A stretch of DNA of 64,000 nucleotides from a virus. The notes below the pieces were generated by a model, which was not told where the DNA came from, did no database searches, and saw nothing but the letters and a program-made list of their open reading frames with translations. Shown in pieces: positions 26,014 to 44,484 of this stretch. The stretch spans positions 24,701-88,700 of IMG/VR virus record IMGVR_UViG_3300022839_000011, one strand, 5' to 3'. Position numbers and translations under genes: made by a program. How positions within the stretch are numbered: position 1 is the stretch's first letter; every line of letters starts with the position of its first letter.

Positions 26014-26238
26014 CTATACCTTTTCATCTGTTTTGTTGATCGTTACATTTACTTCCAACTGTTTAACTGTTGGGGGCTCAATAAAAATTTCTACCGTTGC
26101 CCATAAAAACCAAATGGGTGTCAATAGCACAAATAACACTAAAGCAATACCCCAATTTCGTTTGAATGTTTGTATTCCACCTTTAATAAGAATGTAAAAT
26201 AGCAACAGTATAACACCAAGTCCAATAATTACGTCCAT
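26014..26238 (-). CDS. small membrane protein
   Basis: Two hydrophobic segments. Confidence 0.55.
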   Translation of the reverse strand: MDVIIGLGVILLLFYILIKGGIQTFKRNWGIALVLFVLLTPIWFLWATVEIFIEPPTVKQLEVNVTINKTDEKV

Positions 26239-28060: not shown

Positions 28061-28300
28061 CTATTTATCAGTGCTTGTGTAGCTAACCCGATACATACCT
28101 TCTGGTTTTTTTAGTGCTTCTTGTAATTCATAAAACATCTGATGTGACGTGGAAATAAATTCGTAACTATTCAATGTCTCACACCACTGTTTAAGCCAAA
28201 CACCATCATCATCTATTAACAATTCAACATCATCATGTTCTGCTGTTTCATCCATCAGAACTGTTACTGTCTCATCAAATTTAATTTCGTTTGTGAACAT
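28061..28300 (-). CDS. hypothetical protein
   Basis: SD AGGAG; PEG.Y C-terminus. Confidence 0.6.
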   Translation of the reverse strand: MFTNEIKFDETVTVLMDETAEHDDVELLIDDDGVWLKQWCETLNSYEFISTSHQMFYELQEALKKPEGMYRVSYTSTDK

Positions 28301-28634
28301 TCAAATTTCTCCTAAATTTTAAGCTTGATATCAAACCCATGAAAATTGGCCGCGCCTATACCCACCGTTTACACAAAAGGCATTATCTCTTATCATGCCG
28401 CGCGGCAACATGATCGTAGTTTGAAAACAATACTGGTTTATTCCCATTCACTTAATGGCTTAGTCAAACACTATCCACCAAACTACCATCCCCAACTATT
28501 GGGATGAGAACTCTAACTTTTGTTTTTCCCAAAATAAATTTTGACTGTCATAAATGGTGGTTTGTGAGGCAAACCACCATTGAATTGCTTTGGATTTACA
28601 TGCAGATACACATATCTGCATGTAAATCACTATA

Positions 28635-29051
28635 TCACTTTTCTAATTTAGACCAATTAACAAGAGTTTCTTTTGACACTTCGGGGGTAGATTTATCCCG
28701 ATATTTGTTTACCATTGCTACAACGCGAGGAACGACAAATTGAAAAAAATCATATTCGCTATCTTGCTTTCTTTTATGTTCTACTGTGGTGTATAGTACA
28801 CCTGCAATATATGCACGGGCAAGATAAGTTGCTCTGTTTTCTTGGCGAACATCTTTTCGACGATGCCTGTTTAACGAGTAGTATTTACTATACATAGGAT
28901 CTTCATATTGGTTATATTCAATATTAGAACCAGCCGCATTATGCTGCTCTATGTTCCAACGAAACTGTTTTAACAATTTTCTTTCTTCAAAGCGAATTAG
29001 CTGCGCTTCTACTGAAAGGTGCTTTGATTTAATTTTTAGTTCTATAGGCAT
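28635..29051 (-). CDS. basic hypothetical protein downstream of the amber/RSPP uORF
   Basis: ELKIKSKHL..E..IRFEE..HRR..VR.E.RATYLARAY..G..Y..VE. Confidence 0.75.
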   Translation of the reverse strand: MPIELKIKSKHLSVEAQLIRFEERKLLKQFRWNIEQHNAAGSNIEYNQYEDPMYSKYYSLNRHRRKDVRQENRATYLARAYIAGVLYTTVEHKRKQDSEYDFFQFVVPRVVAMVNKYRDKSTPEVSKETLVNWSKLEK

Positions 29052-29058
29052 TTTTAGT

Positions 29059-29146
29059 CTCCTATTTGATTGAATTTGATTTACTTTACTTTTTAGCCAA
29101 ATAGGTTACGGCGGCGATCTAATCTACAACATTTGCATCTCCTTTT
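29059..29146 (-). promoter_or_regulatory. putative translational attenuator: uORF M-L-UAG-I-R-S-P-P-UAA (29106-29132) plus anti-SD hairpin
   Basis: SD AAGGAG before the uORF; CCTATTTG (29098-29105) pairs with CAAATAGG (29061-29068), which overlaps the downstream SD. Confidence 0.6.
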
Positions 29147-29203
29147 GGTTGTCAAATTGCTATGTATAATGTATTTATCAGTATCCCTACCTTATTTTTA
29201 TAT

Positions 29204-29332
29204 TGGTAGGTTTGAGAGGAATCGAACCCCCAAAGTAAAATGCGCTGTCTTACCTTCGTAACTTAGTCACCAGACTTGAAACAAAAATTTGCTTTCTAGA
29301 AAAGCAAATTTTCTATCCGTTACGTCATACCT
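29204..29332 (-). ncRNA. tRNA-like RNA with enlarged D-region
   Basis: AGGTATG/CAAACCT-A-CCA acceptor, GGGGGTTCGATTCCTCT T-arm, non-canonical 129-nt body. Confidence 0.6.
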
Positions 29333-29471: not shown

Positions 29472-30227
29472 CTAGCGTTTTCGCTTGAAGCACCTATCTT
29501 CGTAAAAATCTTTCATATGGCGTTTCACCCATAAGTTAACTTTCGGAGGAGTAATTCCAATGATTTTTGAAACTTCTGAAACCCAGCCAAATTTGCTAAA
29601 ATCTATATCGCTGTTTTCTACAGCAAGTATAACTGAACGGTATTTAATGTCCGTTTTCATTCTATGCTTCACACCAGGTAAAAGCGGTTTTTTTGCTTCC
29701 TTAGCAATTACTCTTTTCCTTTGCGTTTCAAAATACTCAGAATAATCTGGTTGTTCGCCAAGTTCTATAAGTTTTAGTACGTTGTCAGGATAGAAACATT
29801 GTGAATAGTGTATTTCCAATATTTTCCAACCTGCGCCTTCTATTTTATTGTGCCTCTCTTGATAATAATCACGCAGTGACCAATCGGAATTGTAATGCTG
29901 ATTTCCGTTTATTTCAATACCAAGTTTAATGTCAGGAAAGGCGATGTCTATGGAATAACTCATATCATCTAACGGAATCCACTCCTCAACAAATGATATG
30001 TTATTTGCTCTTAAAGCTTCCTTAATTTTTTCGCATGGCACTGAAACAAATTTGTCTCTTTGACGCCAAGGATGTTTGTCAGGGTTTTTCTTTAGGAACT
30101 TCTTTCGCGATTCTGATATTTTTTGCTTGGTTTCAGGTGAAACAATTTTCGCACACTTTATTGAACAGTATCTGCTTCTTCTTTCAGAAAATTCTGTATG
30201 GCATCTTAAACAATTTTTTGTTTTCAT
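29472..30227 (-). mobile_element. putative homing endonuclease (Vsr/DUF559-like PD-(D/E)XK domain with NUMOD-like N-terminus)
   Basis: YCSIKC, ETKQKISESRK, IDIAF..GIEING.QHY..GWKILEI; in tRNA cluster. Confidence 0.75.
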
Positions 30228-42519: not shown

Positions 42520-43131
42520 TTAGTCGAAATCCATTTCTTTTTCCATTTTCCCAACAAATATTTTTTTGCCTCTAATACCATTGATAGTTTGGGTGGGCTC
42601 TACTTCTTCAAATGCAAACTCTCTGCCTCGAATTCTGCTAAGAAATTGCCCAGAAGCTTTCCCGAATTTGCCACTACCTACAACTTCTTTTTTGTTGTAC
42701 GATGGATATGCATCATCCCTTTTTGATGTTCCATAGAGATAAGAACCTTTTCCACCCATTGGTATAATCAAAACAGAATCTTGATCGTACTTTCGCCCCA
42801 ATGCAATAAGATCCTTTTCTAAAATACCACCATCAGAACCTTCGACTTTTTGATTGCACACAAAAAAAGATTCTTCGCCAACTTCTTTCTCATTTTCGCT
42901 ACCAAAATTTTCAATGTAACTTCCTTTTATTTTGGTTACGGAATAACCCTTGCCCATCAAATAGGTTAGCATTTCTTTGTTGGTCTGTTTGTTTTGTGCT
43001 TTTGTTTTTTTGTCACGATGACTCGTGATAGTTCCGCATGAATGATTCTGGGTCTTTTGCCAAACCCGCGAAAGTGAAGATTCTTCAAGTTTGTTTTCGA
43101 TCATCTCTGCAATAATTTGCTTAATAGACAT
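42520..43131 (-). CDS. putative internal head protein
   Basis: IKQIIAEMIE..LEESSLSRV; G.Y.E..EESFFV; LGRKYDQDSVL. Confidence 0.6.
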   Translation of the reverse strand: MSIKQIIAEMIENKLEESSLSRVWQKTQNHSCGTITSHRDKKTKAQNKQTNKEMLTYLMGKGYSVTKIKGSYIENFGSENEKEVGEESFFVCNQKVEGSDGGILEKDLIALGRKYDQDSVLIIPMGGKGSYLYGTSKRDDAYPSYNKKEVVGSGKFGKASGQFLSRIRGREFAFEEVEPTQTINGIRGKKIFVGKMEKEMDFD

Positions 43132-43140
43132 TGTGTTCTC

Positions 43141-44484
43141 CTATAGTTCTTCCAAATCAGTATCAAACTGAATACTTGGGGTTGTGGTCTTCCAAAATTT
43201 CAATTCCTTTTTTGCATTGTCTTGTTCAGATTTAAGAGACTTTACCATTTCATCAGTAAGACTCATGATATTAATTCTCAAAAGCCTTTCAATGTCATCT
43301 GCCAGTGCAGTAGTATTTTGTAATATCTGTTCTGACACATCTACTTTTTTCTTGTTTTTGAATATGATGTTATTATCAATAACTTCTTTGATGAACTGCA
43401 TTTTTACATCCAACCATCGAAATTCCTCATTGTATTCCTTGACACGCAAATCAATGCGCTTTTGTAAAATTCCCAACCTATAGTCACAAAAATCTTTGAT
43501 AAGATCGCGTTCATCTGTATACTCGCGTAACTTACCATTTTGATCGATGACTGTCAAGTTCTCTGTTATTGGCTTAGTGAGCCTAAACTCTTTTTCAATT
43601 TTCGCATCATCCCAGTTTGCACTGGTGTTTTGCTTCAATTTGACTTCAAATTTAAACCCATCTTTATCACAAAGATCATCGTAACTTACAATTTCATCTG
43701 ATTCTTCTAGTTTATCTAAAATTGTAACATAACTTTCACGATCAACACCATAAGGAATTTCAGTAATCAAAAGGACTGTTTTTCCTCTTTTTTCGAACAG
43801 ACCTTTACAAAAATATCGGTTTTGTTCTTCTAAATCTTGTACTACAGTTCCATTAAATTCGGGAAATTTAATTTTCAATTTCTTGCTTATTTTGCCATTA
43901 GACAAATATTCTTTACATGCACGAATGATGTCTTTGGTTTCGCGGGGAAGAATGTTAGTAGCAAATCCAGTAGCAATTCCTTTTGTTCCATTAGAGAGAA
44001 CAAGTGGAATTACCGGAATGTAAAATGATGGTGGTTCATGCTCTGGGTCAGAATGCTCTGGTGCAATGTCAATATCTTTGATGTATTTACCAAAATTTTT
44101 ATGTAGCTTAGTATATGTGTATCTTGGTGCCGCTGCTGTTGGCACTAATCGAGTCCCAAAAGCACCACGGCCTTCCACCAAACATACATTATTATTCCAT
44201 TCTGCCGCCATTAATTGTCCAGCACCAGATGCACTTGTTTCGCCGTGCTGGTATCCATAATCTGAGATTGGCCCGCTAATGGCGGAAACTTTTTTAAATT
44301 CTGATTTGCTGTTCATAATAGAAGAATATAGGTAAAAACGCTGAACAGGTTTCATACCATCTATCATGTTTGGTATCGCTCTATTCTCTAAGGTATAAAT
44401 CGCAAAATCTTTCCATTCATTTTTTGCGATATCAGATACATTATATCTTTTCGGGGATTCTTCTTTGATAAAATCTGTTATCAT
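43141..44484 (-). CDS. 52: DNA topoisomerase II medium subunit
   Basis: RAIPNMIDGMKPVQR, YQHGE, AAPRYT (catalytic Tyr), NGTKGIATGF. Confidence 0.97.
   Translation of the reverse strand: MITDFIKEESPKRYNVSDIAKNEWKDFAIYTLENRAIPNMIDGMKPVQRFYLYSSIMNSKSEFKKVSAISGPISDYGYQHGETSASGAGQLMAAEWNNNVCLVEGRGAFGTRLVPTAAAPRYTYTKLHKNFGKYIKDIDIAPEHSDPEHEPPSFYIPVIPLVLSNGTKGIATGFATNILPRETKDIIRACKEYLSNGKISKKLKIKFPEFNGTVVQDLEEQNRYFCKGLFEKRGKTVLLITEIPYGVDRESYVTILDKLEESDEIVSYDDLCDKDGFKFEVKLKQNTSANWDDAKIEKEFRLTKPITENLTVIDQNGKLREYTDERDLIKDFCDYRLGILQKRIDLRVKEYNEEFRWLDVKMQFIKEVIDNNIIFKNKKKVDVSEQILQNTTALADDIERLLRINIMSLTDEMVKSLKSEQDNAKKELKFWKTTTPSIQFDTDLEEL

What the first reader, a model, noticed from the sequence alone, without database searches (positions are those of the whole stretch)
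28635..29146. Amber-gated RSPP leader: candidate sensor of UAG read-through controlling an unknown protein
Seen: on the minus strand, SD AAGGAG is followed by ATG TTG TAG ATT AGA TCG CCG CCG TAA (M-L-amber-I-R-S-P-P-stop). Directly after it, CCTATTTG pairs with CAAATAGG, which covers the SD of the 138-aa gene at 29051. Known: R-x-P-P (RAPP-like) motifs and Pro-Pro before a stop codon stall ribosomes. Inference: with normal RF1 termination the ribosome leaves at codon 3 and the SD stays hidden. If UAG is read through (RF1 depleted or poisoned, or a suppressor present), the ribosome stalls over the anti-SD and switches the gene on. The Arg/His-rich product may rescue termination or counter a host defence aimed at termination.
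Basis: partly seen in the sequence, partly recalled or inferred. Interest (0 to 1): 0.9.

Follow-up and report, generated by a model that had tools for sequence, protein, structure and literature searches.

The report
Stop-codon-gated leader sensing phage suppressor tRNA
A T4-like phage puts a tiny leader gene with a built-in UAG stop and a ribosome-pausing Pro-Pro-stop end in front of an unknown protein, so the protein is probably made only when a phage tRNA that reads UAG overrides the stop. Over a hundred related phages share the design, but this genome has deleted that tRNA.

Summary
SD, ATG TTG TAG ATT AGA TCG CCG CCG TAA, and a CCTATTTG/CAAATAGG stem over the SD of the 138-aa gene all sit where stated.

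The window's fold alone is no better than shuffles. Comparison with relatives makes the case:
- Of 108 distinct homolog loci, 97 have a short ORF with an in-frame stop (95 TAG, 2 TGA) 2-6 codons before Pro-Pro. In 84 a stop follows Pro-Pro directly.
- After it comes a covarying stem that covers the SD of the main gene.
- 95 of the 108 loci carry a suppressor-type tRNA upstream on the same strand. Both TGA leaders have a UCA tRNA.
- In two clades an 83-aa conserved protein lies between the TAG and the Pro-Pro-stop, so the TAG must be read as sense there.

Best reading: a translational switch that reports working suppressor tRNA.

The window itself is a 426-nt deletion variant that has lost the tRNA-CUA still present in near-identical relatives.

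The gated protein belongs to a large phage-only family (2215 clusters). It is a helical hairpin with no known fold relative, and its function is unknown.

I found no published description. This scan has already noted the same design in at least 16 other genomes. Nothing has been tested experimentally.

The parts
29139..29144 (-). Shine-Dalgarno (AAGGAG) of the leader ORF
   Evidence: An SD-like site precedes an in-frame start in 96 of 97 parsed leaders.
29106..29132 (-). Leader ORF ATG TTG TAG ATT AGA TCG CCG CCG TAA. The gate codon TAG is at 29124-29126, Pro-Pro at 29109-29114, and the terminal TAA at 29106-29108.
   Evidence: Conserved design in 97 of 108 distinct homolog loci. Third positions of the Pro codons vary freely.
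29098..29105 (-). 5' arm of the stem (CCTATTTG), starting right after the leader's stop codon
   Evidence: In 78 of 88 relatives the segment after Pro-Pro pairs with the SD region better than 95% of shuffles do. Swap test.
29059..29068 (-). 3' arm of the stem (CAAATAGG, 29061-29068), overlapping the SD of the main gene (AGGAG, 29059-29063)
28635..29051 (-). Gated gene: a 138-aa helical protein of a large uncharacterised phage family
29180..29190 (-). Deletion junction GTAGGGATACT. Near-identical relatives have 426 nt here, between this repeat and GTAGGGAAACT. That segment carries the tRNA-CUA.
28553..28628 (-). Two strong hairpins just after the gene's stop codon; they probably end the transcript
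   Evidence: sequence; 13-bp stem at 28553-28581.

Best explanation
The leader is a translational switch that reports whether a stop codon is being read through by a suppressor tRNA.

Off state: a ribosome starts at the leader's own SD, meets UAG at codon 3, and is normally released by RF1. The stem just downstream stays closed and hides the SD of the 138-aa gene.

On state: if a charged tRNA with anticodon CUA decodes the UAG, the ribosome goes on for five codons. It pauses at Pro-Pro followed by a stop, with its footprint lying on the 5' arm of the stem. The SD is freed and the 138-aa protein is made.

In relatives the tRNA-CUA is encoded directly upstream, probably on the same transcript. 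The gene is therefore tied to functional suppressor tRNA.

In this window the tRNA gene has been lost by a 426-nt deletion. The switch here is expected to be off unless a suppressor is encoded in the unsampled part of the genome.

Shown: the conserved architecture, the linkage to the tRNA, the stop-anticodon match, and the deletion.
Inferred: read-through, pausing, unmasking of the SD, and co-transcription.
Unknown: what the protein does.
For: (1) The sequence is as described.
(2) Of 108 distinct upstream regions, 97 have an in-frame stop 2-6 codons before Pro-Pro (60 of them exactly 3 codons). 84 have Pro-Pro directly followed by a stop. 96 have an SD-linked in-frame start.
(3) The frame is kept although the spacing varies. 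TAG counts by frame relative to Pro-Pro are 96, 16 and 4. There are 59 distinct leader peptides.
(4) 95 of 108 loci have a suppressor-type tRNA upstream on the same strand. It is the nearest upstream tRNA in 94 of those 95, at a median of 166 nt from the main ATG. 86 of the 87 suppressor-type tRNAs in the loci lie upstream of the gene.
(5) The only two TGA leaders, L009 and L139, have UCA tRNAs, and no TAG leader does. The two are not sisters in a quick tree, and their tRNA bodies differ.
(6) In two clades an 83-aa conserved ORF starts M-S-x-TAG-V/I-E and ends in Pro-Pro-stop plus the stem. The TAG there must be decoded for that protein to be made.
(7) In other variants the read-through frame runs up to the main start (L053) or overlaps it as ATGA (L055), which is classical translational coupling.
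(8) The stem covaries: 68 distinct arm pairs, mean z of -3.9, and cognate arms beat 95% of non-cognate partners in 42 of 75 loci.
(9) The base after the gate stop is A or G in 92 of 97 leaders. Sequence context and C-terminal prolines are known to weaken termination (PMC6412442; Hayes et al. 2002 as cited in PMC12856214).
(10) Distant family members (33-46% identity) and two cultured phages have the same module.
Against: There is no experimental evidence of any kind: no reads, no ribosome profiling, no reporter assay. The window's own stem is weak (8-9 bp, 27-nt loop) and its fold is not better than shuffles. The window's contig has no tRNA-CUA, so here the switch lacks its presumed input. Exceptions exist: L145 has no leader, L109 is frameshifted, L204 has a Val(UAC) tRNA where the others have CUA, and L092 and L159 have no suppressor tRNA within the DNA held. 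The loci are related to each other, so counts overstate the number of independent events. The two TGA/UCA cases sit on long branches, so one shared origin is not excluded. RNAalifold found no single consensus stem, because the register of the stem differs between clades.
Confidence: 0.8

Rival explanations
1. The leader senses the host's termination capacity (RF1 depleted, inhibited or attacked) through near-cognate read-through, independently of any phage suppressor tRNA.
For: The window's genome lacks a tRNA-CUA in the 88.7 kb held, yet the leader and the gene are intact. UAG is read only by RF1 (established knowledge). The competition at the UAG is between RF1 and the tRNA, so RF1 activity necessarily affects the read-out.
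Against: The linkage to a suppressor tRNA is nearly universal, and the leader's stop codon matches the tRNA's anticodon (TAG with CUA, TGA with UCA). The window's state is a recent deletion: flanks differ at 2 of 270 and 3 of 560 positions, so it says nothing about selection. The contig is only 42% complete.
Confidence: 0.1
2. TAG is simply the true stop of a start-stop or very short upstream ORF. The conserved Pro-Pro-stop stretch and the stem are RNA-level elements (a processing or stability signal of the tRNA array), and the nearness of the tRNA is only shared location.
For: 28 leaders have the start codon directly before TAG. The gene sits inside tRNA arrays, where processing signals are expected.
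Against: The spacing between the gate stop and Pro-Pro varies only in whole codons. TAG is strongly enriched in frame. The third positions of the CCN CCN codons use all four bases. An 83-aa conserved coding region follows the TAG in two clades. The stop codon covaries with the anticodon. The suppressor type is 87 of 561 tRNAs in these loci, yet it is almost always the one directly upstream of the gene.
Confidence: 0.05
3. Inverse logic: read-through of the leader represses the gene instead of activating it. For example, the paused ribosome or a refolded RNA blocks initiation, so the protein is made only while the suppressor is absent.
For: Sequence alone cannot fix the direction. The protein is retained in the window variant that lost the tRNA.
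Against: The stem occludes the SD in the resting state, and its 5' arm begins right after the leader's stop codon, inside the footprint of a ribosome sitting at Pro-Pro-stop. The leader's stop lies 44-62 nt from the main ATG, too far for steric blocking. Variants in which the read-through frame ends at or overlaps the main ATG are typical of positive coupling.
Confidence: 0.04

Closest known systems
Leader-peptide translational attenuation (ermC/cat leaders) and 'monitoring substrate' arrest peptides (SecM-secA, MifM-yidC2; PMC7897499)
   Same: A short upstream ORF with its own SD. A stem sequesters the SD of the regulated gene. A ribosome held at the end of the leader opens the stem.
   Different: Reaching the pause site depends on decoding an in-frame stop codon, not on an antibiotic or on export activity. 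The pause is at Pro-Pro before a stop codon. The input is a tRNA encoded next door.
RAPP/RAPG arrest peptides ApdA, ApdP, ApcA (Sakiyama et al. 2021, PMC7897499)
   Same: A proline-rich C-terminal arrest element in a small upstream ORF. The window's leader ends R-S-P-P.
   Different: The essential R-A-P-P/G motif is not conserved: only 10 of 97 leaders have R-[AGS]-P-P. The regulated gene is not a Sec or YidC component. Arrest is expected at termination, not at elongation.
prfB (RF2) autoregulation through an in-frame UGA (established knowledge)
   Same: An early in-frame stop codon is used as a sensor of how efficiently that stop is recognised.
   Different: There is no +1 frameshift site and no internal SD. 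The read-out is suppression by a tRNA in a separate leader ORF, and the product is not a release factor as far as can be seen.
Amino-acid operon attenuators (trpL, hisL, pheL), which sense charged tRNA (established knowledge)
   Same: A leader peptide whose translation reports the availability of one particular charged tRNA.
   Different: The reporting codon is a stop codon. Presence of the tRNA switches the gene on. Control acts on translation initiation, with no terminator/antiterminator pair.
Engineered UAG-in-leader switches for unnatural amino acids (reviewed in PMC6412442, section 6)
   Same: A TAG placed in a leader peptide makes the downstream gene depend on a suppressor tRNA. Doubling the TAG tightens the gate, and locus L163 has two TAGs.
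   Different: Those switches are synthetic and act on transcription (tna/trp leaders). This one is natural, phage-borne and translational.
Stop-codon-recoded phages (TAG read as an amino acid; crAss-like and others; PMC7886860, PMC10879173)
   Same: A phage-encoded suppressor tRNA with anticodon CUA.
   Different: This phage uses TAG as an ordinary stop in 16 of 126 ORFs, and I found no in-frame TAG in its large genes. Only the leader carries one.

Membership tests
Leader-peptide translational attenuators (ermC/cat type) | A short ORF with its own SD directly upstream of the regulated gene | tested here: met
   96 of 97 parsed leaders have an SD-linked in-frame start.
Leader-peptide translational attenuators (ermC/cat type) | A stem that sequesters the SD of the regulated gene, with its 5' arm inside the footprint of a ribosome paused at the leader's end | tested here: met
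   The stem is conserved and covaries. The window's own stem is weak.
Leader-peptide translational attenuators (ermC/cat type) | Stalling triggered by a small-molecule ligand (an antibiotic) bound to the ribosome | not testable with these tools
   Nothing in the sequence suggests this; the gate is a stop codon.
RAPP/RAPG arrest peptides (ApdA/ApdP/ApcA) | The R-A-P-P/G arrest motif, essential for arrest (PMC7897499) | tested here: not met
   Only 10 of 97 leaders have R-[AGS]-P-P. The residues before Pro-Pro are mostly K or R at -1 and T, R or I at -2.
RAPP/RAPG arrest peptides (ApdA/ApdP/ApcA) | Location upstream of a protein-localisation gene (sec, yidC) | tested here: not met
   The downstream gene is an uncharacterised 138-aa helical protein.
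prfB-type stop-codon autoregulation | An in-frame stop with a +1 shift site (CUU UGA C) and an internal SD, inside the release-factor gene itself | tested here: not met
   The continuation is in the zero frame, in a separate leader ORF, and the product has no RF-like family hit.
Transcription attenuators of amino-acid operons | Alternative terminator and antiterminator hairpins with a U-run | tested here: not met
   No terminator-like site lies between the leader and the gene. The stem's 3' arm is the SD itself.
Stop-codon-recoded phage (genetic code 15-like) | Many genes with in-frame TAG that become whole when TAG is read as sense | tested here: not met
   TAG ends 16 of 126 ORFs, and coding density is normal under code 11. 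The one long in-frame continuation after a TAG is a separate gene with its own SD and ATG.
Suppressor tRNA + gated-gene module (the family defined here) | A tRNA with an anticodon matching the leader's in-frame stop, upstream on the same strand | tested here: not met
   This applies to the window itself: there is no CUA tRNA in the 88.7-kb contig, and it was removed by a 426-nt deletion. The feature is met in 95 of 108 relatives.
Pth2-linked amber-gated operons noted earlier by this scan | A PTH2-like gene (PF01981) co-gated downstream of the leader | tested here: not met
   There is none in the window's genome. Of 5 relatives' genomes, 2 have one, but 4.5 kb and about 25 kb away from the module. 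No downstream partner is conserved.

The most novel reading that the evidence does not exclude
The suppressor tRNA, the gate and the 138-aa protein form a self-contained feedback controller of UAG decoding in phages that otherwise use the standard code. In this reading the protein acts on RF1, on the ribosome or on the suppressor tRNA itself. The phage would then set and measure its own level of stop-codon read-through during infection, a regulated and partial switch of genetic code.
Probability: 0.3. Interest if true: 0.9.

Novelty: new variant of a known kind. Interest (0 to 1): 0.85.

Why it matters
Many phages that use the standard code carry 'orphan' suppressor tRNAs with no known purpose. 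This module gives them a defined, testable target: a leader that turns stop-codon read-through into gene expression. It would be a natural counterpart of the engineered UAG switches of synthetic biology. It would also be the first natural regulatory element known to sense nonsense suppression.

It singles out a large unknown protein family (2215 clusters) as functionally tied to suppression or termination. Two cultured phage-host pairs carry the full module, so the idea can be tested directly: Ruegeria phage DSS3_MAL1 and Synechococcus phage BUCT-ZZ01. The window adds a natural deletion variant that has lost the tRNA and kept the switch.

Tried and rejected
- The window's leader fold alone gives z = +1.0, so it offers no support by itself.
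- RNAalifold on 61 aligned leaders found no consensus pairs, because the register of the stem differs between clades. I replaced it with per-locus duplex tests.
- A canonical tRNA at window 29204-29332: not called by ARAGORN at default settings and no Rfam tRNA hit. The CTA-bearing hairpin is a perfect palindrome.
- Recoding of the genome: rejected.
- Protein family and fold: no significant hit in Pfam, PHROGs or PDB sequences. Foldseek against PDB gave nothing at E <= 0.001. VIA wide gave only generic helical hairpins at Z < 8, among them the seryl-tRNA synthetase arm and an ABCF linker, which is not evidence. BFVD returned only uncharacterised family members. The ESM Atlas gave nothing usable.
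- Fused forms: a single 333-aa protein with PF00867 on a 1.3-kb contig, probably a gene-calling artefact.
- Pth2 linkage, a lead from earlier scan notes: not found in this family.
- Conserved downstream partner: none.
- Literature: six searches found no description of a natural suppressor-sensing leader.

Full report
**Observation.** On the minus strand the window reads AAGGAG-ATGCAA-ATG TTG TAG ATT AGA TCG CCG CCG TAA, from 29144 down to 29106. Directly after it comes CCTATTTG (29105-29098). This is complementary to CAAATAGG (29068-29061), which overlaps the SD AGGAG (29063-29059) of a 138-aa ORF starting at 29051. The description is exact. Folded on its own, the 131-nt region is not more stable than shuffled sequence (z = +1.0). 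The window alone therefore proves nothing.

**The gated protein.** It has no Pfam, PHROG or PDB-sequence relative. It does belong to a large family:
- 457 clusters at 90% identity;
- 2215 representatives at 50% identity with E <= 0.001, all stand-alone proteins of about 105-185 aa.

The N-terminus M-S-I-E-L-K-I-K-S-K-H-L is almost invariant, which fixes the start codon. AlphaFold gives a confident model (pLDDT 90): a long helical hairpin (residues 3-39 and 52-82) plus two further helices. The invariant H-R-R-x-D-V-R-N-E-N-R-A-T-x-L-A-R-A stretch lies on the second helix. Fold searches return only generic coiled-coil hairpins (Z < 8) and uncharacterised phage proteins. The family is essentially confined to phages. 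Among 185,579 species genomes there is one hit, on a 156-kb MAG contig. The window's phage is T4-like, with a gp32-like SSB, a gp41-like helicase and topoisomerase II subunits.

**Conservation of the leader.** I fetched homolog loci from viral and metagenome contigs and reduced them to 108 distinct upstream regions.
- 97 regions have a short ORF with an in-frame stop 2-6 codons before Pro-Pro. The stop is TAG in 95 and TGA in 2. The spacing is exactly 3 codons in 60.
- In 84 of the 97 a stop follows Pro-Pro directly (over all 97, terminal stops are TAA 71, TAG 12, TGA 12).
- 96 have an SD-linked in-frame start, 0 to 9 codons before the gate stop.
- Spacing varies only in whole codons. In the 4-24 nt before Pro-Pro, TAG occurs 96 times in frame and 16 and 4 times in the other frames.
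- The Pro codons use all four third bases.
- The codon after the gate is mostly ATT, ATC or ATA (62) or GTT or GTA (22). There are 59 different leader peptides.
- The base after the gate stop is a purine in 92 of 97 leaders. The 3' context and C-terminal prolines are both known to weaken termination (PMC6412442; Hayes et al. 2002, cited in PMC12856214).
- The strict R-A-P-P/G arrest motif of ApdA, ApdP and ApcA (PMC7897499) is not conserved: 10 of 97 leaders.

**The stem.** In 78 of 88 loci the segment from the second Pro codon to 14 nt past the stop pairs with the last 24 nt before the main ATG better than 95% of shuffles do. The mean is -12.4 kcal/mol and the mean z is -3.9, with 68 distinct arm pairs. 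I then used only the 16 nt after the stop and swapped partners between unrelated loci. The cognate pair beats 95% of non-cognate pairs in 42 of 75 loci, where about 4 are expected. The 3' arm always includes the GG(A) of the SD. RNAalifold found no single consensus, because the register differs between clades.

**The suppressor tRNA.** ARAGORN finds a tRNA with anticodon CUA directly upstream, on the same strand, in nearly every locus. Counts over the 108 distinct loci are:

| tRNA type upstream | loci |
|---|---|
| CUA | 86 |
| odd 6-nt loop holding CUA | 6 |
| 8-nt loop, CCUA | 1 |
| UCA | 2 |
| none found | 13 |

Most of the 13 without one have less than 650 nt of upstream DNA available. 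The suppressor is the nearest upstream tRNA in 94 of 95 loci, at a median of 166 nt from the main ATG, and often about 30 nt from the leader's start. Of the 87 suppressor-type tRNAs among 561 tRNAs in these loci, 86 lie upstream of the gene.

The only two leaders with TGA instead of TAG are L009 and L139. They are also the only two loci with a UCA tRNA. Their tRNA bodies differ, and a quick tree does not make them sisters. Both sit on long branches, so a single origin is not excluded.

**Variants that bear on the mechanism.**
- In two clades (L042 type and L025 type) the ORF that ends in Pro-Pro-stop is 83 codons long, conserved as a protein, and begins M-S-x-TAG-V/I-E, with no other plausible start in the L042 type. 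The TAG there must be decoded. That protein has no known family either.
- In L053 the read-through frame ends 4 nt before the main ATG.
- In L055 it ends in a TGA that overlaps the ATG, which is classical coupling.
- L163 has two in-frame TAGs.
- Exceptions: L145 has no leader, L109 is frameshifted, and L204 has a Val tRNA at that place.
- More distant family members (33-46% identity) show the same module.
- Two cultured phages have it complete. Ruegeria phage DSS3_MAL1 has the tRNA-CUA and the leader M-K-S-TAG-I-R-P-P-P-stop. Synechococcus phage BUCT-ZZ01 has the tRNA-CUA and the leader M-G-G-D-A-S-TAG-I-N-L-K-P-P-stop.

**The window itself.** Its 88.7-kb contig is 42% complete by CheckV and holds no CUA tRNA. 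Three near-identical contigs from other samples carry, in order: tRNA-Leu(UAA), a 129-nt tRNA-like element, 426 nt containing the tRNA-CUA, the leader, and the gene. The window lacks exactly those 426 nt, between the imperfect direct repeats GTAGGGATACT and GTAGGGAAACT. The flanks differ at only 2 of 270 and 3 of 560 positions. More than a hundred relatives have the tRNA, so this is a deletion in the window's lineage. The switch here has lost its presumed input, unless another suppressor lies in the unsampled part of the genome. The genome is not recoded: TAG ends 16 of 126 ORFs. The one long in-frame continuation after a TAG, behind the topoisomerase gene, is a separate gene with its own SD and ATG.

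**Mechanism.**
- Shown: the conserved codon-level architecture, the SD-sequestering stem, the linkage to the suppressor tRNA, and the stop-anticodon match.
- Inferred: RF1 normally ends the leader at UAG, too far upstream to disturb the stem. A charged suppressor tRNA lets the ribosome reach Pro-Pro-stop, where slow termination holds it over the 5' arm. The SD opens and the gene is translated.
- The function of the protein is unknown. A role in tuning suppression or termination is an attractive guess without evidence.

**What is known.** The output resembles erm/cat leaders and arrest-peptide 'monitoring substrates'. The input resembles prfB's in-frame stop and the charged-tRNA sensing of amino-acid attenuators. 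The closest analogue overall is the engineered UAG-in-leader switch (PMC6412442). Six literature searches found no natural example. Earlier notes of this scan describe the same design in at least 16 other genomes, some gating Pth2-like genes. In the present family Pth2 is not linked, and no downstream partner is conserved.

**Verdict.** It is sharpened in one respect: the trigger is the phage's own suppressor tRNA. All of this is comparative inference, and nothing has been tested experimentally.

Noticed in passing
window 29204-29332 (minus strand): A 129-nt tRNA-like element with an acceptor-like stem, a canonical T arm and an ACCA end. Its interior is a perfect palindromic hairpin (AAATTTGCTTT-TCTAGA-AAGCAAATTT), whose loop can be read UU-CUA-GA. 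ARAGORN does not call it at default settings, and there is no Rfam tRNA hit. It is 99% conserved in the relatives that also keep the canonical tRNA-CUA, so it does not replace that tRNA.
   Followed up: partly
L042:2177-2440, L138:1180-1443 and relatives (L025, L143, L160, L169, L106, L133): A conserved 83-aa protein of no known family (motifs HFNKKHLED and STKETPDNPSTKG). Its ORF begins M-S-x-TAG and ends in Pro-Pro-stop. It would be a protein-coding gene that needs amber read-through in phages that otherwise use the standard code.
   Followed up: partly
window 26014-26238, 28061-28300, 29472-30227 (minus strand): Three of the 16 TAG-terminated ORFs of this genome have a second stop directly after the TAG (TAG TAA, TAG TAG, TAG TAG). 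All three lie within 3.5 kb of the leader.
   Followed up: no
window 29472-30227 (minus strand): A 251-aa ORF with weak Vsr/REase_MTES_1575 and HNH or homing-endonuclease-like hits. It lies inside the tRNA array, next to tRNA-Leu(UAA).
   Followed up: no
window 29172-29179 (minus strand): GATAAATA, which resembles the T4-type late promoter core (TATAAATA). It lies between the deletion junction and the leader, and it is kept in the undeleted relatives. Not tested.
   Followed up: no
L007, L010, L020, L039, L128, L171 and L081: Suppressor tRNAs with unusual anticodon loops: a 6-nt loop ccCTaa in six loci and an 8-nt loop with CCTA in one. All sit upstream of normal TAG leaders.
   Followed up: no
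L062:1725-2190 and L174:3385-3803: Phage-encoded tmRNA genes (tag peptides ending in LAA) lie within 1 kb of the suppressor-tRNA module in two loci. This is another translation-quality-control element in the same tRNA region.
   Followed up: no
window 42520-44484 (minus strand): The topoisomerase II subunit gene ends in TAG and is followed in the same frame by a 203-aa gene with its own SD and ATG. It looks like a read-through candidate but is two genes.
   Followed up: yes
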